Part shown: in pieces, positions 1 through 64,000 of the stretch
Numbering within the stretch: position 1 is the first letter of the stretch
How the letters are laid out: each line of letters starts with the position of its first letter
Notes under the pieces: generated by a model
Database searches by the model: none
What the model was told of the DNA's origin: nothing
Seen by the model: only the letters and a program-made list of their open reading frames with translations
Translations under genes and position numbers: made by a program
NCBI RefSeq assembly: GCF_006345805.1
Contig: NC_043004.1
Location: 59,582,001 to 59,646,000 of the forward strand
DNA: 64,000 bases
DNA from: Octopus sinensis
Taxonomy: Eukaryota
Direction of reading: 5' to 3'

Positions 1-1369
1 TCAGAGGGAAATGAAGTGGAACAAACAGACTGAATTGGTGAACTGAACTTACGATATCGAGATTTATAAACATAGTGTTTTGTTTTAGATTTGATCGACT
101 CGATGCTGCTTTTTTTTTTCAGACTAAGAAAAGAGAAAAAGAAAAGTATTGTTTCAGTTGTTTATTTACTATCAGGTACTTCAAACTATCTCATCATTCT
201 ATGTACTCATTCGATAAAGCAGAATGCTATTGGGATAGCATTATCTCCTCATACATTTTGAAGATACTCCATGATGTCAGAATCAGCTCTTGTGACATGG
301 CGTCAGTGCTTGATCTGCGATTATTTAAAGCCCATCGCTTTTATATCAATCGTGCTGCTTTTTCTGTAGTGAATATACTTGCCGAACCACACTGTATTTT
401 TAAAGTTGTAGGTGTGTGATATTCTCATCTAAAATTAGAAAACAAAGTAAGGTATTTAAGCATCATGACCAACCGCATAGAATTTCTGCTACGTGGGATA
501 TATATACATATGTAGAAAAAATTGATTTATATAGTGGAAATTAATAAAAAGAACATGCATTGGTAAATATATATCCTATGCTAGTGACGCAAATATTATT
601 TATAATAGAAAAAATAATAGCAAAAGAACAAACATAATTTATCTTTTAAGGAATATTCAGGGATGATTGTCAATATGTTATTCTCATAAGCGAATTAATA
701 TTCAATAAATTTTGTGGTTCACGAATCAGTCATGAAAGTAGCTTTCTTACTATCACTAAATATATAGAAGTATTTAATCATTTTTTTTTCTTTTTTACCA
801 CATCGATTATATTATTATGAATGTAACCGTTACTTATGTGAAACCTGAGGGAAATGAAATTTTATTTCAGCTGAATATACGCAGTAACATTGAATGCAAG
901 CTCCCGTGCGCGCACGAACACACACATGTAAGCTCACATACCCACCACACACACGCAGCAAGGAGCTAATATCAGTTAGGAAAATATTCCAGTTGTGAAG
1001 ATAATAACTGTAAATATATATAACATCTAGTTGATAATTTAAAGTAACTTTTACTTTACAGAAAGTATTAAAGATAATGGAAGCAATATAAGTCAGAATA
1101 TGGTAATTCCAAATCAGGTTTTATGATGGTGGGTCTGCCAACTCAATTGTAGAGCTCTTGGAATAATTGGTACACGTCGTATATTTCAATTCCAGTCTAT
1201 AATACTGAGAATTCTAATAAACAATATGAATAAGAATAAAAATACTGTAGCGTTAAAATATATTAGTGGATTTAACTGCTTTTCTTTCAATAAAATAAAT
1301 ACGGGCCTATATATCTGCTCCCTCTCACACGCACATATATAATGCACACATGTGTAGTCGCGTGTTGTG

Positions 1370-1515
1370 TGTATATACATATATATGTAAACACGTATGA
1401 ATACATACACACACATATATGTACAAAAATACATATACATATATCTGTATATATGCAGACATATATATATATATACAAACTTTTATATTTATATACATAT
1501 ATATGTATATATATA

Positions 1516-1546
<31 letters not shown>

Positions 1547-1586
1547 AACTTTTATATTTATATACATATATATGTAGATATATATA

Positions 1587-1617
<31 letters not shown>

Positions 1618-1639
1618 AACTTTTATATTTATATACATA

Positions 1640-1702
<63 letters not shown>

Positions 1703-1717
1703 GCATATAAATGTAAA

Positions 1718-1807
<90 letters not shown>

Positions 1808-1815
1808 ATATCTAA

Positions 1816-1869
<54 letters not shown>

Positions 1870-2170
1870 CTCTCTATATATATATTTATGGACGCATGTT
1901 TGTATTTGTGTGGATATGTATGTATATTTCACCATGTTACATTACAATATAAATGCAGAGAGAAAAGTGAATGAGAGAAGAGATTTTGACACACATGTAC
2001 AGATATTTATGCCTATATCTGTTATTCTTTTTAACAAGCTAAAAAACTGTCCTTTATACATTTATATTCATATGTACATATGTATATATCTACATGTATG
2101 TATGTATATATATATTATATATATATATATATATAAATGCATACACAAGTGGTATAAATATGCATAAAGG
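1370..2170. repeat. Compound TA / TATC microsatellite region
   Basis: Long (TA)n and (TATC)n runs visible; they explain the YI/LSIY-rich ORFs. Confidence 0.95.
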
Positions 2171-2689
2171 AATATGTGCATATCAATATCTTCGGTAAAA
2201 TGTATAGGTAGATACGTTTGGTTTATATAAACGTGGGCGTCGTTCTTCTAGTTCAGGAGCCTATAATTAGGGATCATAAATATTGATTGAAAATATCAAG
2301 GCTATAATATATTCGTCACCTACACACACGTGTTTCTTACATTGCCAAATGCATGTACTTATACACACGATATTCAGAAATGTATAAAATGCTATAGAAA
2401 TTTAACTTCTTTGGTATATATGGCACACTAAGTATGTATATATACTACACACAGAGTATTATACAGACATATGTATGTATATATGATGATGTTAATACAC
2501 GTTTATCTATGTATGCATATATATATATATATATATACATATGTGTGTGTGAATATATATATATAATATATATATATATTCATACCTGTGTATGTATGTG
2601 TGTGAGTATATATATATATATACAAAAACACATGCAATAATATATCTACATTCATGTATATATATATTATATATATATATATATATAAT

Positions 2690-2725
<36 letters not shown>

Positions 2726-2810
2726 GTAAATATATATATGTATATTTCTTTTTCTCTATCTCTGTATCGATAACCATATCTATATATACATACATATAAT
2801 TAGATATATG

Positions 2811-2841
<31 letters not shown>

Positions 2842-3443
2842 AATGTATGTGAGTATATATGCATGTGTGTATTTATGTATATGTGAGTACATATGTATAT
2901 GTGCGTGAGTGTGCGTGTTTTTGTGTGTACGTGTACGTACTTATGTAAAAAAAATGTAAGAGAAAAACAGTTAGAAATGAATACAAAGAAATACATAGAC
3001 TTTACGTTACGCTTATCTGTATATAGCTAGGAAGTGTCAAAATGCTTTTTACATCCACTAAAATAAAAAGATAAGATGTTGACATAGAATATAAAAAAAA
3101 AGAAGAATGTAAAGACATCATACATCCCCCCGCCAAAAAAATATTGAGATTGCCCTACAATCCTAGTTTTAACCACACCTGTCAATAAAATATACAGGAT
3201 CAGAAAGATAAATGAGCATTCTTCTAAGAAGCAGGGATAGTACCTAAAATGTGGAGGTTATATTGAAGCTAATAATCAGAGATATGCCATTAAATGCATA
3301 TGGTAAACCGCAGTGAAAGGAGGGATACTGATATATGTATACACATACACAGGCATATCGCATACATACTCAATACATATACACATACATATAGATACCT
3401 ACATAGATACATAATATGTACATACATAGACACACACACACAC

Positions 3444-7345: not shown

Positions 7346-8092
7346 TGTAGGAGGGAAGTATAATTGGAACAATGATCATAATAATTATTCTAGTATTTCT
7401 ATAATCACCTGTGCATATATAGAAAAAATATATATACATACATTCATAGTCAGACAGACATCCACACACACACATGCGCGCGCACATATATATAAAATGG
7501 TGGCTGTGCGCATGAGTTTATTTATTTGTTCTATTTAATACTAGGTAAGTATATAGTATTTCCATTTCAGTCGATTATTTACGTTCTATTTATAAATAAA
7601 CATAGAATCATTCAATAAATATTTGATAATGAATAATTTAAAGCGTTCGCTAAAAGTATTAATATAATAACGATTATAATTTATATAATTTATTAGATAA
7701 ATTAATAGCAAGTTATTCAATTTATTTAAAAATATATCGTTCTAAAAATGAATTTTTACTAATTTGAAATATTAAATATCATTGTTACAACGATATGATC
7801 TTACAAATTTGTGTTCCATATTGTGTTGATTTTTCGAAAATTGCTTATTTTCAGCAGCTGTTTCTTCTTTAGTGATTCCAGATTACATTTATCCTTTAAT
7901 GTTGTAATTATTGATGTCATATTTTTACTATAGTATACAATACTGGTTGATTTATAAATATCTGCTAAACATTTATTCCCAGCTAAACGTGGATAACACG
8001 AATTTTGGTGTGGCACACATATAGATCTTTGGTGCAGAATGTACGCTTGTTTGCCAGCGGGGAGACAAATCCTCACAAATCCAACGCCGAGA

Positions 8093-8139
8093 CCACCAGC
8101 TCACGTGATTTCCATCTTCTCCGACCTCATCGGTGATGG
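8093..8139 (-). ncRNA. Type-I hammerhead ribozyme-like motif, copy 1
   Basis: CCATCA-CCGATGA-GGTC ggagaa GATG-GAAA-TCACGTGA-GC-TGGTGG; stem I, core, stem II, palindromic stem III; U16.1 position is G. Confidence 0.55.
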
Positions 8140-8610
8140 ACACTTGGCCGCTAGAGATAGCAGCAACTCATCTCCCCGTCAGTGATATATAGATAACCCG
8201 TTTCTGAGGAGGACCTGACGTTGTGATCAACCAGCCAGCCCATCAAAAGATGTGTATTACCGAGAGAGGTAAAATATATGTATTAGCGCTATTATCGAGA
8301 GGCAAGATTTTATTCCCACCTGGAATTTCGTCTTCCTGCTGGCGAAATAAACAAACGTGCATTGTACACCAAAAGCCTCTGTGGGTATTTCTCTCTTGGT
8401 GTCAGTCAAAGTAAAGTTTGTTCTAGCGGAGTATCCAGGTTTAGCTGGGAATAAATGTTGCCTCTAGGTATTAGTGCTGACTCTGGCGATAATATATATT
8501 TTTTCGACGGGTTGGCTGGCTGGAAGCGAGCCCAGTACCTGTTCAGATTCAGGTTTTCTATGTATCGCTGGCGAGGAGATGCGTTGTTGCTTTCTCTAGC
8601 GGTCGTGCGT

Positions 8611-8657
8611 CCATCACCGATGAGTTCATGGAAGATCGAAATTACGTAATCCGGTAG
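8611..8657 (+). ncRNA. Type-I hammerhead ribozyme-like motif, copy 2
   Basis: CCATCA-CCGATGA-GTTC atggaa GATC-GAAA-TTACGTAA-TC-CGGTAG; AUC cleavage triplet; stem I 3' strand diverged. Confidence 0.55.
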
Positions 8658-9767
8658 TTTCGGCGCTGGAGTTGGTGTGGATTTCTGTCCCCGCTAGCAA
8701 TCTAAATAAACAAGCGTGCATTCTTCGCCAAAAATCTATATTAGTGTTTCTTTCATGGTATCTGCCGCAGTATAGTTTGTTCTAACGGAACATCCACGTT
8801 TAATTGGGAATAAATGTTACCTCTCCGTATTAGCACTATATCTATCGCTAATATATTTTCTGACGGACCATCAAACTCTTCTTCAGTTATATCTTATTTC
8901 TTAAGATTATTATTCCTGGAATATTGCCATTGTTTGTAGCTGTCGACTCCATTGTTTAACAAATAACTAGACTCTAATTTTGACAATATGTTAAGTTTCC
9001 GACTGTAACTTCGAAAGTTTTCATTTCTTAATTTTAATTTCAGCTCTTGATGTCAGCCAAACTTAAACTTCTGTTTAAATTAGGGATACCGAATACTAGT
9101 AAACTTCCCCTCATTTACGCATTCTTCGCTAACGGAGAATGCATAAATGAATGGAATATTTTATCTGTTGGATAATTTCTTCTGCTTATTTGTGCCATAC
9201 TCTCTACAAATTATACGCAGCGTGTTGTCTCTTTGATCTGGCTTGATCTATTTATTCAATAGTCATCATGAACAATGAACCAGAGCCGAGACACCAGCAG
9301 AATACGTTCCTTGTCGGATCACGCTACGTGGGATGTCGGATAACTCTCGGAAATTAATGCGAGTCATGGTATGAGCTTCAATTGTTAACTTCTCATCGCA
9401 GGCACTATAAACAACTGCAGTGCCAATCAAACCGAAGAGTTTTCCGGACCAAAAGTCGTAACACTGCAATTTGTCGTGCCAAATGGGAAGAAATCCAAAG
9501 ACAAATACTTTTTATGCTTTGCAATTCATTCTCTGCTACCATCCTGCTTTCAAAGACACTGGAATTTCCGCAAATTTTACGTCTTCAACATTTCACCGTC
9601 ATCTTGAGTTGCCAAACAGCAGCCCGAGATTTTGTTCTACACTGATTATAGAGTATTCGCAGCTAACGGCAAACTGGGAATCCGATGGATTGGAGTTATC
9701 ACAACCGCACACATCATATATATGTATTCCTTTTGCCTTACGTGTTTTAGTCAGTAGATTGAAAGTA

Positions 9768-27003: not shown

Positions 27004-28016
27004 TTTCGTGAAATACAGAAAAATAAAGGAATATCTTGTGGGCCATAAATTTTGCAGCTTTACTAGAAATCAACGCAGTGGAAGATGTAATCTGCAGGTA
27101 TAGTTGTTTCTGTCCTAACCAATTCCCTTTCTAGAGTATCTAATATAGTCTGGAATTAGTGGGGGAAAGATTTGCTTTTTACCAAACTGTATATAATGTT
27201 ACTTTAATTTTTATAAGAGAAACATCATGATTGGCGTAGTTACACACCTCGCACCCATCAATCCCCACATATACACGAGGAAACGCAGGCACACACAGCC
27301 ACAAACACACACATACGTACACGTACAGGCATATACACACACACTCACACACTAATAAGCAAAAAAAAACAAAAACAAAAACAGAAACGTACATACACGC
27401 ATACATCAATGCATTTACAGAAATAAAATATTGTCTTAGTCCAAAAACAAATTGTGTATTTTAGTGAAAATGAATAATGTGATAATGCCTTTCCAAATTT
27501 GACATACTGACCTGTGTTTATCATATGATGTAGTGATAAATACACAAGCAGCAAAACCATATCGAATCAACCATTTTTAAAGATTTATGAAGTATTCAGG
27601 CTGCCGAACATACATTATTGGTCAGTATTTGAACTCAGAACTCAAGAAACATTGTTCAGTACGTGTCTCAAGCTAGGGTTCTGTTTAGAAAAGGAAAAAT
27701 CGCTGCTATTTATAATGTTTCCTGTAGGAATACTCAATTAACTCATTCAGGACAATTCTTTGGTTCATCTGGAGCTCAGAAGGCTAAATAAACGCCGCTC
27801 TTATGAATCGTCTGAAGAAAATTGATGGAATTCTTTTACGATATTCGTCAATTATTTTGGAATAACATGAATATCATGCATATACTGCATTATTTATTCC
27901 CACTTGACCGTGGCTGTTCTGTTGGAAGAAGCTTTACTGCAATAGATACCATAAAAGAAACACACAAGTAGGTTTTGGTGCAGAACAGGTGATTAGTCAG
28001 TTAAGATATATATATG

Positions 28017-28473: not shown

Positions 28474-28534
28474 TATATATATATATATGTATATATATAT
28501 GTATATATATATGATATATATATATTATATATAT

Positions 28535-28577
<43 letters not shown>

Positions 28578-28605
28578 GTATATATATATATACATATATA
28601 TATAT

Positions 28606-28694
<89 letters not shown>

Positions 28695-28695
28695 G

Positions 28696-28758
<63 letters not shown>

Positions 28759-28784
28759 ATATGTTATATATATATATTATATAT
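28291..28784. repeat. ~500-bp (TA)n tract
   Basis: Direct observation. Confidence 0.95.
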
Positions 28785-29195
28785 AGGCGCAGGAGAGGTT
28801 GTGTGGTAAGTAGCTTGCTAACCAACCACATGGTTCTGGGTTCAGTCCCACTGCGTGGCATCTTGGGCAAGTGTCTTCTTCTATAGCCCCGGGCCGACCA
28901 ATGCCTTGTGATTTGGTAGACGGAAACTGAAAGAAGCCTGTCGTATATATGTATATATATATGTATGTGAGTGTGTGTTTGTGTGTCTGTGTTTGTCCCC
29001 CTAGCATTGCTTGACAACCGATGCTGGTGTGTTTACGTCCCCGTCACTTAGCGGTTCGGCAAAAGAGACCGATAGAATAAGTACTGGGCTTACAAAGAAT
29101 AAGTCCCGGGGTCGATTTGCTCGACTAAATGTGGTGCTCCAGCATAGCCGCAGTCAAATGACTGAAACAAGTAAAAGAGAGAAAAGAGAGAAAGA
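28785..29195 (+). mobile_element. SINE family A, full length
   Basis: tRNA-like head (TGTGTGGTAAG A-box-like, GGTTCAGTCCC B-box-like), CTTGGGCAAGT motif, internal microsatellite, AAAAGAG tail. Confidence 0.9.
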
Positions 29196-29286
29196 TATAT
29201 ATATATATATATATATAATATATGTATATATATACATGTATATATATATATACATATATATATATTATATAATATATATATGTATA

Positions 29287-29340
<54 letters not shown>

Positions 29341-29362
29341 GTATATATATAATATATATATA

Positions 29363-29418
<56 letters not shown>

Positions 29419-29440
29419 ATATATATATATATATATATAT

Positions 29441-29848
29441 AGGCGCAGGAGAGGTTGTGTGGTAAGTAGCTTGCTAACCAACCACATGGTTCCGGGTTCA
29501 GTCCCACTGCGTGGCATCTTGGGCAAGTGTCTTCTTCTATAGCCCCGGGCCGACCAATGCCTTGTGATTTGGTAGACGGAAACTGAAAGAAGCCTGTCGT
29601 ATATATGTATATATATATGTATGTGAGTGTGTGTTTGTGTGTCTGTGTTTGTCCCCCTAGCATTGCTTGACAACCGATGCTGGTGTGTTTACGTCCCCGT
29701 CACTTAGCGGTTCGGCAAAAGAGACCGATAGAATAAGTACTGGGCTTACAAAGAATAAGTCCCGGGGTCGATTTGCTCGACTAAATGTGGTGCTCCAGCA
29801 TAGCCGCAGTCAAATGACTGAAACAAGTAAAAGAGAGAAAAGAGAGAA

Positions 29849-29851
<3 letters not shown>
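29441..29851 (+). mobile_element. SINE family A, near-identical tandem duplicate of 28785-29195
   Basis: Offset 656 bp; I see only one difference (TTCTGGG vs TTCCGGG). Confidence 0.9.
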
Positions 29852-29883
<32 letters not shown>

Positions 29884-30185
29884 ACAGAAGCCTTATTAAT
29901 ACCGAGAGGTAAAATTGATTTCCACAAGCGTGAATTCTGCACCAAAAAGCCGACACGAGAGTTTATCTCATGGCATCTACCGCAGTAAAGTTTGTTCAAA
30001 CAGAACATCCATGTTTAAGGGGGAATAAATATTACTTCACGGTCTTAGTACTGCTACTGTCACTACTATATATATATCTTAACAAGCTCATTGGCAAATC
30101 ACGACATCAATGTCTGTTCAAGCACTACTTTTCTATATATAGTTAGCGGATAGATGAGTATCTTCTATCTGTAGCGGACGAGCGT

Positions 30186-30232
30186 CCATTACGAATGAGA
30201 TCAAAGAAGGTTGAAATAACGTGATTTGGTGG
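30186..30232 (+). ncRNA. Type-I hammerhead ribozyme-like motif, copy 3 (core degenerate)
   Basis: CCATTA-CGAATGA-GATC aaagaa GGTT-GAAA-TAACGTGA-TT-TGGTGG; stems I and II pair fully allowing G-U. Confidence 0.45.
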
Positions 30233-30330
30233 TCTCCGCGATTGAATTGGTGAGGATTTATCCCCACGCTTACGATACAAACAAGCGTGTATTCTGCATC
30301 AAAACCCAATATGAAGTTTCTCTCATGGTA

Positions 30331-30897
30331 CGAGATAGTATCGAAAGGTTCCCAGGCTAGTGTTTAATAAAATGTACCTTATTTACCTAAGTTTTATTAT
30401 CATCGCCTTCGAAATAGGCACCTTGAGCAGCGATAGACCGGTTCCAGTGTTCCTGTCACTTTTGGAATCCGACCTGGAAGTAATTTTCCATAAGCCAGTC
30501 GAGGAACTACTGCCATTCGTTCTGGATCTAGACAACGCTGTTATTTTTGGCAAGAAACTAACGAGTGAGGAACTTTGTCGTCTAATGTCCTCCATAAAAA
30601 GCTTCAAAACATCGAAAAAGAAATCTCGATTGGCGGTCTGGTCCCGGGGAGCGAATTCTCGATGTACAATACGACAATTCCAGGGATGAAGCTCGTGGTA
30701 GGTCTTCCAGACCACTCATCGCCTTTGAAGTGCCTGAGCCACTCGAAACAACGCGTACAACCCATTGCCTCGTTGTCGTAAGCTTGCCGAAGAATGCTCA
30801 ATATCTGTAGCAGACTACCGAAGTTTAACGCAAAAGGGGTGTTACCACCTGTTGGCGGGCTACAGAACTAGTCCGGGAACATTTTGATACTACCTCA
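30331..30897 (-). mobile_element. Internally deleted mariner with TIRs and TA TSD
   Basis: TA|CGAGATAGTATCGAAAGGTTCCCAGGCTAG...CTAGTCCGGGAACATTTTGATACTACCTCA|TA; peptides LRQAYDNEAMGCTRCFEW..HFK..DEWSGRP and VHREFAPRDQTAN. Confidence 0.9.
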
Positions 30898-31525
30898 TAT
30901 CTAACGCAATAAATGTTGTTTCTAACAGAATGTCCACGGTTAAGTGAGAATAGATATTAACTGTCGGTATAAACCTTCTGTCTACCAATGTGTCCAATGG
31001 ACATATTTCAGTTTTTCCAGTTGCTTTTTCCCACTGTTCATATTACTGGATTCTGATGATCTCGTGACTTGTTTTTCCTTGACTCTTTTATTTGTGAAAT
31101 GGGAAATTTTCCGTATGTTTATAAAAGCTAGAAAATTTCACTTTATACATTAATTGCAGTATAGGTCCATTGGACACTCAAATTAAATTCAGACACTACT
31201 CCTGTCATTCTAAACACAGTATCAAAGCAGTATCAAATGTTATTTTCCTAGATATTTATCAGATACAAAATAGATAAAATTGTATTCAATTTATTTGCTG
31301 AAGTTTAGATAAAACAGGAAAAATTAAGAAAATATTCTTGTAAAATTGTATGGTATTACATCACTTTCAATCTGCTAGGTTACAGGGTGATTCAATATTT
31401 CTATATGATGACGCAAGCCTTACAATATATCGCACCGTCTTACAGGAGAGTATAACTATGTGAGAAAGCAATATCTGCCTTTAGTCTGCTATCAAGTTTC
31501 ATATAGTTCAGTTGTGCTTTCCAAT

Positions 31526-33199
31526 ATGCCTAGACATGAAAAGTTGAGTGAAGACCATAAATCAAAAAGGCGATTAGAATTAAATGACGAATGGGAAGAA
31601 GATGGTAGTGATTGATTCTATTGCTCTGAAGATGATGGTGAAAGCGATTGTGTGCTGGACAGTTTAGGTCTCTGTCATCAGATGATGAAGATACACAAAA
31701 ACAATTATCTGCAAGCTACCCAATATGAATGAGCAATATATTTCTAGAGACAGAGAAGAAATTTGGCATTCTTATCCTCTTACTGAAGCAGCAGTAAGAA
31801 CTTCATCTTGCGATATTGTGCGCCAAGAATGTGGACCATCTTGCTTTAACAAAAGGTCTTGTGATAGCACTGCAACATGTTTTGCTATCTTTATGCGCCA
31901 GATTCTTCTTGAAGTAATTCATAAATGGACAAATATTGAAGATCAGATTGTTTACAAAGATAAATGGAAGGACATTGATCAATCTGAACTAAAGAAATTT
32001 ATTGGACTGATTATTCTTATAGGTGTTTAGGGATCTAAACATGAAAATGCCACACAGTTATAGAGTCAAAAAGGTGGTCGCCCAGTATTGAACAAACTTA
32101 TGGGCCGGGGAAAGTTTCAACAGATTTTAGAGGTATTGCGTTTTGATGATGCTAGTGCAAGAAGAAAAAAGAGAAGTGATGATAAATTGGAGCCCTTAAG
32201 AGAAGTATTTGAAATATGGAATCAGAATTAGCAAGATGGATATTTCCAAGTTCATGAATGACAGTTGATGAACAATTAGTTTCATTCAGAGGACGCTGCC
32301 CATTCTGGGTATATATTCCTTCAAAACCAGAGAAATATAGAATTAAATTTGGGCAATATGCGACAGTGAAACATCTTTCGCCTGGAAAATGCAAATCTAC
32401 ACTAGAAAAGACCCATAAAAGAGAGAGAGAGAGAGAAATCAAGGATCCAAAGTTGTTGAAGACCTAGTAAAAGAACTTGAAAATACTGGTCGCAATATAA
32501 CTTGTGATAATTGTTTTAACATGTCTAGGATTGGCTAGAAAGCTGCTAAGCAAGAAAACTACTTCAGATGGAACAATTAAAAAGCACAAAGTTGAACTTC
32601 CAAGTGCTTTTAAAAATAGAAAAGAAAGAGAAACCAAGAGCACAATATTTGGATTTCAAAAGGATTCTATGATCCTATCTTATTGTCCCAAGAGAAATTT
32701 TGTAGTCACACTCATGAGTACAATGCACTCTCTGCCTTCAATTGATTCAAAAAGTGCTGAAAAGAAACCTGAAGTTAATACATGTTACAACAAAACATAA
32801 GGAGGTAAGGACATTCACTTGCAAAAGAATGACTCAAAGATGGCCTATGGTTATATTCTACAACATGATTTATATACGTGCAGTGAATACTTCCATTGTT
32901 GCTAAACAGCTTCACTTGCAAAATTTCAAGGATAAAAGAAGACAGTGCCTGATTTAGTTAGGAAAGGAACTAAACAAGAAAATGACAATCACTTTTCTAG
33001 TTCCGTTAACATTTCTCAAACAAACAAGTAAAGATGATCTTCAACCTCATTTGAGATTCCTCAACCAAAGAAAAAAGATGTTCTTTGTGTGACTCCCCAC
33101 CAAAAAAAAAAAAAAGATAGGAAAACACGTACTACATGTAAGATTTGTAATATCAAGGTTTACCAAGAACATTCCAATGTTGTCTGCATTCACTGCTAA
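31526..33199 (+). pseudogene. Decayed piggyBac (PGBD-like) transposase
   Basis: Acidic N-terminus; ELKKFIGLIILIG; MTVDEQLVSFRGRCPF..YIPSKPEKY.IK; RNITCDNC; VTLMSTMH; RWPMVIFYNM; C-terminal Cys cluster CSLC..TCKIC..VCIHC*; many stops and frameshifts. Confidence 0.92.
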
Positions 33200-33389
33200 A
33201 GAGCTGTAATTCTGTATTTTTGTAATTTTTAAAATTTATGATATATTCTGTATTCTGTAGTTTTGTATTAAAATTTGTGAGGAGCAGTAAATCTTCATTC
33301 ACCTGATAGCATATATAATGTAGCAAAGAAATACTGGTAGTTTGAACAAAATTTAATTAAAAGACAAATATTGGGTTCTTTGGATCTGA

Positions 33390-61733: not shown

Positions 61734-64000
61734 TTAAAGATAAAACAGTAGAATAGAAAGATTAAAACAGATGTGGGAGAAGCAGAAGAATCTCTTCAGA
61801 ACCGTTTCTGATGCCCTTATCCCTAATGTATGACTCATTGCATTAATTTGGTTTACTTTGAGGTTGTTTTCGGTAAATTAATTACAACAGCTATTTATGT
61901 ATAAAATATGATCCACTGGATGACCAACTTGGAAGAAAAGCTCGAGAAGACCAAAGGTGAGATAAAAAATATGGTGGAAAAATTAATTTGAAAAGTAACA
62001 ACAAAAAGATCACTTTTAATTATCTACAACTTCTTACTATTTTAACAAACAATAGCCAGCTCTCTGTGTTTTCTACATAATTTAAAGGATCTCTGCTTTC
62101 TTAAACTATTAAAAACACAGCTGAAGGAGATAGATTTCATTGCTATTCCTATTAACCGATGTAATACTATCTCTAATGCCCGAGTGCAATAAAATGCATT
62201 CACACATTATGCGAAGAATCATGAACACTGCATCTGAAATTTTCGGAAGTTACTGAATTGCTGACGACTTATTCTTATACGTTCTATTAAGTGTCAGGTG
62301 GGGTTCAGCGCATGAAATCAATATCAACAACACAAGCTGTAGAATTTTCATAAACCAGGTATGTTTATTTAATTATACTGACAGACTTCCATTTCTGTGC
62401 TATTGAAAGCCGTATGTTACATCGTGTCTGCGGTACAACACGTCAGCAGATCCTACAAGTTCAATAGTTGCTTGAGAATACCGAACGCAAATTACGTCTA
62501 ATTGTGGAAAAAATTATACCGCTTTTCACTGACAGTATTTGATAAGAAGATAATTAATTTTATATTGGTTGAATACATGATTATTTTTTCTGCACTTGCT
62601 TGATATTTTATATTTACTATAATTAGTGAGTGCAAGCTGCAATCTTCAGTCACAATATTACATATATTTTGTTTCATTCTACTATTTATGTACTGAAGTG
62701 TAGTGATAATCACGTTAGTTTCTTAGCTATCATAAAATTTTGAACTTATTCTCGCTTTCTCTCTCTCTCTCTTCATCTCTCTCTTTCTCTCTCTCTCCCT
62801 CTCCGCCTCCCCATTCCTCCTTCCATCACATATGCTCACACACACACACAGACGTATACACGCGTATAAAGATCAAGACTCAAGAAATGAGGTGTAAGTG
62901 AAATATATTCACCAGCTAATGATATCCACAATGCCATAAACGAAATGATGTCCAACTCAACTGTACAATATATGTTTACAAATATGCTGTTCAACCATAT
63001 TACTCAATTGATACTGATAGCTAGAGAGAGACATTGAATTCGTATGTCTGAGAGCGGTCATTGCTGTTAATTGCTTATAAATTTGCTTTACAGCAGGTCA
63101 CATGATTACATACAGGTCATATACATATGCGTACACACATATGGGCCAAAATACAGGTATACACATCTGCCTGCCTCATATGTACGCATGTATATATGTA
63201 GATATACACACGTGTATATATATATATATATATATACATCCCGACTACTATTATTATTACTGCTGCTTATTCGACTGCTCCAGCCATTTCTTTTCAAAAC
63301 AGTCTTGACCAGATTACTTACTTAACCGTCACAGGCAGTGTCACTACTAATGCCATGAAAATTAAAGGAAATTACCACTTGCGCTTGCAAGATGAAGAAA
63401 AATACACTATGGACTATTATTTTAATAATAGGTCCCATATTTTAGGTCCCATGTACGGAGGGACAATTGTATTATATGCAGGATGAACGCACAATTTAAC
63501 TGTAAGTTTAGGAATATAGTCTATAGCTTACGAGGTACTGAGGGACGGTGCAGAGGCATGATAACTGCTTACATTGGGGAGATATCACGCAGCATAGAAG
63601 AATGTATAGGTGAAAAACTGGTGAGAACTCAAAGTTCAAAGAAGTGAAAGGCTTGTCAGTGCTCTACCAACAAGCTCAAGCAGAACATAAAGGCTCATTC
63701 GATAACATATGTAAAAGTATTATAAAAGCATAGAACTGACACGACACTTAGAAATATCACTGACGCTATACCCGTAGCAATATACAGACCGAGACTCTAT
63801 CGAATAGAACAATAACACTCACCACCACCAACACGTTACACAACATAACGACTAAGGACTACTGGATGAAGGCAGAAAAAGAAAACAAAATAATCAGACG
63901 CAAACAGCGTATATAAACATATATAAACATACCTATAATAAATATTAAAAACTTAGACACATTCAATAAAAAAAAACTGTATAAAGGACAAGGATACCGA

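What the first reader, a model, noticed from the sequence alone, without database searches (positions are those of the whole stretch)
7965..8840. Candidate retrozyme-like family: ~358-bp monomer carrying a type-I hammerhead ribozyme
Seen: a repeat with period 359 bp here and 357 bp at 29.9-30.3 kb. Three copies (8093-8139 minus, 8611-8657 plus, 30186-30232 plus) give the consensus CCAUCA-CCGAUGA-GRUC-6nt loop-GAUC-GAAA-UCACGUGA-UC-UGGUGG, which has exact hammerhead topology. Stem III is a palindrome with a compensatory double change (UCACGUGA vs UUACGUAA). Stems I and II tolerate G-U wobbles, and CUAGCGG/CCGCUAG can close a longer helix around copy 2. Two copies share C at core position 4 (CCGAUGA). 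Established: metazoan non-LTR retrozymes are tandem few-hundred-bp monomers, each with a type-I hammerhead; they are processed into circular RNAs and thought to be mobilised by Penelope-like elements, and palindromic stem III favours dimeric cleavage. Inference: this is such a family in a probable cephalopod with a non-canonical core. The individual copies here are each mutated and probably inactive.
Basis: partly seen in the sequence, partly recalled or inferred. Interest (0 to 1): 0.82.

Follow-up and report, generated by a model that had tools for sequence, protein, structure and literature searches.

The report
Old octopus retrozyme, Penelope-type insertion
This is a decayed copy of a genome-wide, non-coding repeat whose 355-base unit carries a hammerhead-ribozyme motif; it is likely an old retrozyme, a known kind of small self-cutting RNA parasite, and the mirror-image shape of its insertions suggests that Penelope-type jumping genes pasted it into the genome.

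Summary
In detail: period 359 and 357, three type-I hammerhead motifs at the stated places (shuffles give 0-1). 7968-8865 is one two-armed insertion: an inverted, 5'-truncated arm plus a 1.5-unit direct arm. It belongs to an old dispersed family (roughly 1,000-3,000 copies by estimate, 11-13% diverged). 3' ends fall at two points about 40 bp apart (100 of 149 arms), and inverted pairs carry one of each (13 of 15): the published footprint of Penelope-like elements (PLEs). Units join seamlessly and no PLE body was found attached, so the template is likely one ~355-nt RNA, probably a circle (consensus fold z about -8). CCGAUGA is a real subfamily core but a minority; UUGACAA (U3-A8 covariant) is commonest. 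The window's ribozymes are damaged; cleavage, circles and expression are not shown. Verdict: new member of a known kind (animal non-LTR retrozyme). No cephalopod retrozyme appeared in my paper searches; this scan noted similar octopus families on other DNA before.

The parts
7968..8353 (-). Inverted, 5'-truncated arm (unit positions 68-351 then 2-112); ends at the family's short 3' end point at 7968
   Evidence: nhmmer with the family unit profile; self-BLAST
8093..8139 (-). Hammerhead motif, copy 1: core CCGAUGA; G at 11.1 and G at 16.1 break two conserved pairs, predicted inactive
   Evidence: sequence
8348..8865 (+). Direct arm: one full unit (8348-8706) and unit positions 1-162 of the next; ends at the family's long 3' end point
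   Evidence: period 359 from three anchors
8611..8657 (+). Hammerhead motif, copy 2: core CCGAUGA and GAAA present, stem I 4 of 6 and stem II 3 of 4 pairs; predicted cut site 3' of 8651
8820..8865 (+). About 40-bp one-sided 'tail' (stretch between the short and the long end point), present on this arm only
27888..27987 (-). 100-bp 3' stump of the same family, ending at the short end point
29869..29940 (-). Second insertion: short inverted arm ending at the long end point, followed by a (TA)n tract
29924..30979 (+). Second insertion: direct arm (29924-30330 and about 30897-30979), interrupted by a later ~567-bp element
30186..30232 (+). Hammerhead motif, copy 3: core CGAAUGA (G5 lost), predicted inactive

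Best explanation
The locus is a decayed two-armed copy of a dispersed family of ~355-bp non-coding units, each carrying a type-I hammerhead motif, and it is likely an old animal retrozyme copied by the enzyme of a Penelope-like element. Steps: (1, inferred) a source copy with two hammerheads is transcribed and cut at both, probably as a dimer through the 10-nt palindromic helix III, releasing a unit-length RNA; (2, inferred) the RNA is ligated into a rod-ended circle; (3, inferred from the footprint) a PLE reverse transcriptase/GIY-YIG endonuclease primes at two fixed points about 40 nt apart, about 170 and 210 nt downstream of the cut site, and copies round the template for 0.3 to 2.7 turns; (4, shown) the products are 5'-truncated arms with seamless unit junctions, often as an inverted pair with one short and one long end; (5, shown) the copies then decayed, CpG sites first. 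Several source lineages with different cores existed (inferred): CCGAUGA (window), UUGACAA, UUGACGA and probably canonical CUGACGA.
For: Dispersed family: 40 scored of 319 and of 2,453 first-look candidates; core-blind patterns give 76 and 114 exact hits, reversed controls 0. Hammerhead: helix sizes 6/4/3; RF00163 full-model match in L119; pair 10.3-11.3 is CG 76, UG 17, UA 15, CA 7 among 121 copies, Fisher p 1e-5; pair 3-8 in CpG-retaining copies is CG 23, UA 17, UG 9, CA 5, p 0.0007 (copies are not independent). Subfamily consensuses folded as circles give z -8.5 and -8.3 against 60 shuffles, with the hammerhead strand about 20 kcal/mol more stable than its complement; the U3 consensus dimer folds into the double hammerhead. 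PLE footprint: 100 of 149 arm 3' ends lie at unit positions 105-130 or 145-172, against 21 of 149 5' ends; 30 inverted pairs in 96 loci; 12 of the 14 pairs with both ends classed are short+long, 13 of 15 with the window added by hand, p 0.004; 2 of 52 single-arm loci carry the tail alone, inverted, at the 5' junction, 0 in controls. Craig et al. (bioRxiv 2021.04.23.441226, passages) give 5' truncation, an adjacent inverted copy and a one-sided 30-40-bp tail as PLE marks. Fixed template: 38 arms in 35 loci run seamlessly through both end points into the next unit, 4 with an indel over 25 bp, 1 discontinuous tandem. The genome holds RT + GIY-YIG PLEs with long open frames.
Against: No cleavage, circle or transcript is shown. 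Whole-structure covariation is weak: of five measures only cells changed on both sides (36 against 24 +/- 5.5, 5 of 500 shuffles) and, marginally, the covariation score (22 of 500) exceed shuffles; pairs with a two-sided change do not (181 of 500). Each of the two covarying pairs may be one event in a source lineage. In the core-blind listing, 18 of 38 C3 copies have a non-pairing A8 and the 3-8 association is not significant (p 0.09). Retention of G12 over a control CpG is not significant (p 0.13). No PLE family was found whose ends match the unit (0 clear hits in 80 PLE loci; best 9.9 bits, E 0.008), so the helper is unidentified. The CCGAUGA consensus dimer did not fold as a double hammerhead, and neither monomer's lowest-energy fold is the active one. 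Arrays are shorter than in typical retrozymes. A linear multimeric transcript would give the same seamless junctions as a circle.
Confidence: 0.8

Rival explanations
1. The copies are stumps of an autonomous PLE that I did not find: the unit is its pseudo-LTR, and no free retrozyme RNA ever existed.
For: Same footprint as PLEs. Cervera and de la Pena 2014 (PMC4209133, parts 1-2 of 4) report hammerheads on opposite strands 100-700 bp apart and single motifs tied to truncated PLEs. One of 99 family loci (L030) has a GIY-YIG fragment on the same strand about 120 bp upstream. Only three PLE queries were run in a genome with thousands of candidates.
Against: 38 arms longer than the end-to-end distance continue into another copy of the unit in exact phase, not into a body. 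None of 26 pairwise hits among 63 upstream flanks reaches the junction in both loci in the same orientation. In L030 the family insertion overlaps where the endonuclease would end, as for an insertion into a PLE. The PLE hammerheads seen here are minimal variants of other sequence, whereas this one has canonical helix sizes.
Confidence: 0.1
2. Same element and helper, but the template was a linear multimeric transcript of a tandem source locus; the hammerhead only trimmed it and no circle was formed.
For: No circle seen (cannot show one). Arms never exceed 2.7 units. Both 3' end points lie far from the cut site.
Against: The 135-nt rod closes around the hammerhead and the whole unit folds far better than shuffles as a circle; circles are shown for 350-390-nt mussel units (PMC7229834 section 14). 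Fixed 3' ends inside the unit are easier to explain on a circle.
Confidence: 0.08
3. A fold-back or TIR DNA transposon (MITE) with a chance hammerhead-like motif.
For: The window locus is a large imperfect palindrome.
Against: Inversion points differ in every locus and most loci have one arm; matches of 7 bp or more across the junctions in 7 of 63 loci against 6.4% in shuffled pairings, no constant TSD; the motif has all three stems, two covarying pairs and an Rfam match.
Confidence: 0.02

Closest known systems
Animal non-LTR retrozymes (coral, mussel, axolotl: Cervera and de la Pena 2020, PMC7229834, passages and section 14; vertebrates: Li, Clavereau and Pollet, bioRxiv 10.64898/2026.07.22.740005, parts 1-3 of 5)
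   Same: ORF-less unit of 150-450 bp (mussel 350-390) with one type-I hammerhead, head-to-tail copies, GC about 45%, strongly self-paired as a circle, PLEs in the same genome.
   Different: Old and decayed, no young source found; mostly 0.3-1.5 units per arm; frequent inverted two-armed insertions with a one-sided tail, which the passages I read do not describe for retrozymes; main cores are UUGACAA and CCGAUGA, not CUGANGA; helix III has 3 bp rather than 1-2. Expression and circles not shown here.
Insertions of endonuclease-bearing Penelope-like elements (Craig et al., bioRxiv 2021.04.23.441226, passages; PMC8969392, passages; PMC4209133, parts 1-2 of 4)
   Same: 5' truncation, adjacent inverted copy, 30-40-bp tail at one end, hammerhead with palindromic helix III, U3-A8 core variant.
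   Different: No ORF; tandem junctions are in fixed phase instead of at random truncation points; canonical-size rather than minimal hammerhead.
Natural hammerhead core variants (Perreault et al. 2011, PMC3088659, passages and section 8)
   Same: U3-A8 covariation is natural and active in vitro; U4C is known from a viroid, much slower in vitro yet enough for infectivity; a 10-bp palindromic dimer helix III is drawn for a mosquito repeat.
   Different: Here both variants appear as source states of sister subfamilies within one repeat family.

Membership tests
Animal non-LTR retrozyme | Type-I hammerhead in each unit | tested here: met
   (RF00163 full model, 22.1 bits, under the gathering score); 0 gathering-level hits in 8 loci
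Animal non-LTR retrozyme | Head-to-tail units of 150-450 bp | tested here: met
   period about 355 (median), 38 seamless arms; arrays short, at most 2.7 units
Animal non-LTR retrozyme | No protein coding, no LTR body | tested here: met
   no stop-free frame of 110 codons over the locus; PLE peptide hit in 1 of 99 loci
Animal non-LTR retrozyme | Highly self-paired circular fold | tested here: met
   predicted only: z -8.5 and -8.3 for consensuses with CpG sites restored by my rule; -2.7 and -2.0 for the two window units
Animal non-LTR retrozyme | Two consecutive intact hammerheads (the 'active' criterion of Li et al.) | tested here: not met
   for the window loci: one hammerhead per arm, all damaged. 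23 of 121 family copies keep a U4 canonical or covariant core with stems, 7 more with C4
Animal non-LTR retrozyme | Self-cleavage in vitro | not testable with these tools
   bench assay needed
Animal non-LTR retrozyme | Abundant circular RNA in tissues | tested here: inconclusive
   only contigs of runs guessed to be RNA were available
Autonomous Penelope-like element | RT + GIY-YIG ORF attached to the repeat | tested here: not met
Autonomous Penelope-like element | 5' truncation, inverted 5' copy, one-sided 30-40-bp tail | tested here: met
TIR DNA transposon / MITE | Fixed inverted termini and constant-length TSD | tested here: not met

The most novel reading that the evidence does not exclude
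The family is a fossil record of a ~355-nt circular RNA copied by a Penelope enzyme from two fixed priming points 40 nt apart, and of a ribozyme core that moved through four working states (canonical C3-G8, U4C, U3-G8, U3-A8), with CpG deamination during the DNA phase supplying the changes and ending at the same U3-A8 core that this genome's own PLE hammerheads use.
Probability: 0.3. Interest if true: 0.6.

Novelty: new member of a known kind. Interest (0 to 1): 0.4.

Why it matters
The papers I read propose PLEs as the helpers of animal retrozymes from co-occurrence and sequence kinship (PMC7229834; bioRxiv 10.64898/2026.07.22.740005). Here ORF-less hammerhead units carry the PLE integration footprint itself, which is more direct support. 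The family also offers natural core variants in one sequence background for a simple cleavage comparison. Its age limits the value: no young source copy was found, so the life cycle cannot be watched in this family.

Tried and rejected
Rfam at the window: no hammerhead; 0 gathering hits in 8 better loci. RNAalifold on 33 CpG-retaining copies did not return the hammerhead fold (12 pairs, -1.3 kcal/mol), so pairs were counted on a structure that I named. Sequencing runs: no RNA holder listed. Four runs guessed to be RNA gave 315 contig pieces like the family, 195 under 90% and 1 at 99% or more alike, none spanning the stretch; one 704-nt contig shows a 355-nt step back, which a genomic tandem explains as well; no evidence for or against expression or circles. 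Whether the window insertion is shared with related species stays open. TSD search: no excess. Within-locus identity (70-86% for 20 pairs) does not exceed between-locus identity much (mean 75%), so it says nothing on the source; the remaining 13 pairs at 91-100% are recent local duplications. Selection on G12: not significant. The coding-looking DNA 3' of the locus (8860-9750) did not match PLE peptides. The tree of 89 units (FastTree, no supports read) broadly separates C3 from U3 copies and groups the window's copies with other CCGAUGA/GAUC-GAUC copies, but several copies fall across; I use it as a hint only. My typed tally summed to 78; the recount of the listing (76 rows) is used here. Rows dropped before counts: loci fetched twice, segmental duplicates (L123-L125), self-complement artefact hits and local tandem duplicates (131 to 121 copies). 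A look-up of earlier findings by sequence gave nothing. Lunse et al. 2017 (PMC5785218) is not held; not read.

Full report
Observation. A relaxed descriptor finds these three and nothing else in the window; 195 of 200 shuffles give none and 5 give one. The second locus (29869-30979) has the same two-armed layout, interrupted by a later element, and a 100-bp stump lies at 27888-27987.

The family. The window unit finds 50 matches from 40 scored of 319 candidates, at 68-82% identity. A copy near the consensus (L031/L032) gives 2,453 candidates, and the best of 40 scored are 81-87% identical. Two patterns that leave the core free give 76 and 114 exact hits with 0 for the reversed controls. With 26 fixed places and about 12% divergence, 76 hits imply roughly 1,000-3,000 hammerhead-bearing copies (my estimate). 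Non-CpG divergence from the subfamily consensus averages 12.6% (33 copies) and 11.3% (41 copies), minimum 6.4%. No young lineage was seen; near-identical hits are local or segmental duplicates. A young lineage with changed stems would have escaped the patterns. The host is probably an octopus: a 2.72-Gb assembly with about 30 large contigs and a SINE that I recall as octopus; not tested.

Insertion anatomy. In 96 loci, 149 arms were chained. 49 end at unit positions 105-130 and 51 at 145-172; 18 more 'end' at the profile edge, an artefact of chaining. 5' ends are scattered (21 of 149 in those two windows; 30 at the profile start, partly artefact). 30 loci have an inverted pair; in 16 one end could not be classed; of the other 14, 12 have one short and one long end. 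With the window added by hand this is 13 of 15 (p 0.004). In 2 of 52 single-arm loci the stretch between the two end points sits alone and inverted at the 5' junction (0 in two controls). No constant TSD was found (7 of 63 loci with a match of 7 bp or more, control 6.4%). Craig et al. (bioRxiv 2021.04.23.441226, passages) and PMC8969392 (passages) give exactly these marks for PLE insertions. Unlike PLE partial tandems, 38 arms in 35 loci pass through both end points into the next unit in phase; 4 have an indel over 25 bp and 1 is discontinuous. So the template was one repeating ~355-nt unit.

Is it the end of a coding PLE? The genome has many PLEs: 147 GIY-YIG matches from 150 scored of 5,029 candidates, with open frames up to 883 codons, and one carries RVT_1 plus GIY-YIG. 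The unit was not found beside the endonuclease in 30 + 50 PLE loci with 1.5-kb flanks (best 9.9 bits). 23 PLE peptides hit 1 of 99 family loci (L030), where the family seems to interrupt the endonuclease. Upstream flanks share no junction-anchored block. The search covered few PLE families, so this rival keeps 0.1.

The ribozyme. Helix I has 6 bp, helix II 4 bp with a 6-nt loop, helix III 3 bp with a palindromic ACGU loop; 6 and 4 bp are the canonical metazoan sizes (PMC4209133). A copy with canonical core matches Rfam RF00163 end to end below the gathering score. Among 121 copies, pair 10.3-11.3 is CG 76, UG 17, UA 15, CA 7 (p 1e-5), and 13 of the 15 UA copies have C3. On 33 CpG-retaining copies, 85% of cells pair in a 52-pair structure (hammerhead plus a long closing rod), against 37-50% for slid controls, but shuffles are exceeded only by the count of two-sided cells (5 of 500) and marginally by the score (22 of 500); the signal rests on pairs 10.3-11.3 and 3-8. 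Folded as circles, the two subfamily consensuses score z -8.5 and -8.3; the window units only -2.7 and -2.0. The U3 consensus dimer folds into the double hammerhead (-33.3 kcal/mol); the C3-C4 one does not.

The core. In one search (76 rows, counted by hand) UUGACAA is 22, CUGAUGA 12 (6 from one segmental triplicate), UUGAUGA 8 (4 from one local tandem), CCGAUGA 5, UUGACGA 5, CUGACAA 5, CUGACGA 3. In the first 100 of 114 rows the figures are 30, 9, 10, 6, 5, 12 and 3. CpG decay blurs this, so I used retention of 12 other CpG sites per copy. C4 copies keep 69% of them and U4 copies with C3, U7 and G8 keep 23% (17 and 18 copies, p 0.0002): CCGAUGA is a source state and most CUGAUGA copies are its decay products, although the mirror product CCAAUGA is oddly rare (1 against 18), which leaves room for a CpG-poor canonical lineage. 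Among U3 copies that keep half or more of their CpGs, positions 7-8 read CA in 15, CG in 8, UG in 1 and UA in 1 (p 0.0005 for CA against UG); none of 12 ordinary CpG sites shows a retention difference at p under 0.05. So U3-A8 is likely a source state. Against this, 18 of 38 C3 copies have A8 and the raw 3-8 association there is not significant (p 0.09). U3-A8 is a known active covariant and U4C a known slow variant (PMC3088659); U3-A8 also occurs in schistosome PLEs, and the minimal hammerhead-like motifs of the PLE families read here have it too. All three window motifs are damaged.

Mechanism and comparison. The best reading is an old non-LTR retrozyme: transcription and double cleavage (inferred), circle (inferred), copying by a PLE enzyme from two fixed points (inferred from the footprint), then decay (shown). 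It meets the sequence criteria of the class in PMC7229834 and bioRxiv 10.64898/2026.07.22.740005; activity and circles are untested, and the window loci fail the two-intact-hammerheads criterion for an active copy. Eight paper searches turned up no cephalopod retrozyme and no account of inverted, tailed retrozyme insertions; the library lacks most subscription papers, Dfam and Repbase were not searchable, and no supplements were read. I had reached this reading before looking at the scan's earlier notes; a word search there lists 99 findings, among them several octopus retrozyme families with the same footprint (unchecked AI notes, not support).

Verdict. Real feature, new member of a known kind, interest 0.4. 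What remains of value is the PLE footprint on ORF-less units and a set of natural core variants.

Noticed in passing
window 30331-30897: A ~567-bp element with ~30-bp imperfect inverted ends (25 of 31 matching, read by eye) between TA dinucleotides interrupts the second retrozyme insertion; its minus-strand peptide recalls a mariner transposase (from memory), but Pfam gave no hit.
   Followed up: partly
window 31600-33300: Broken piggyBac-like transposase remnant; PF13843 at E 0.0015, below the cut-off.
   Followed up: partly
window 63435-63803: Decayed PLE GIY-YIG endonuclease fragment (tblastn E 8e-17 to the L064 peptide).
   Followed up: no
L066, L069, L078, L081-L091 (about 430-1190 bp after the ORF); L143-L154; L173-L186: Three PLE families of this genome carry minimal hammerhead-like motifs with a U3-A8 core near their 3' ends (the last two read by eye from majority lines); the first family also shows a long and a short 3' end (L086 against L085).
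   Followed up: partly
L058:1657-2334; L126:1553-2006: Local tandem arrays of only the hammerhead-bearing 130-bp or 121-bp part of the unit, 91-100% identical within the array; recent duplication or assembly artefact.
   Followed up: no
L122-L125: A 2.4-unit copy with two hammerheads 359 bp apart lies three times on contig C30 and in part on C9833 (segmental duplication); its two units are 98.6% identical.
   Followed up: partly
window 28533-29882: A 656-bp tandem duplication (96% identical) of a common SINE plus microsatellite lies just before the second insertion.
   Followed up: no
   Followed up: no
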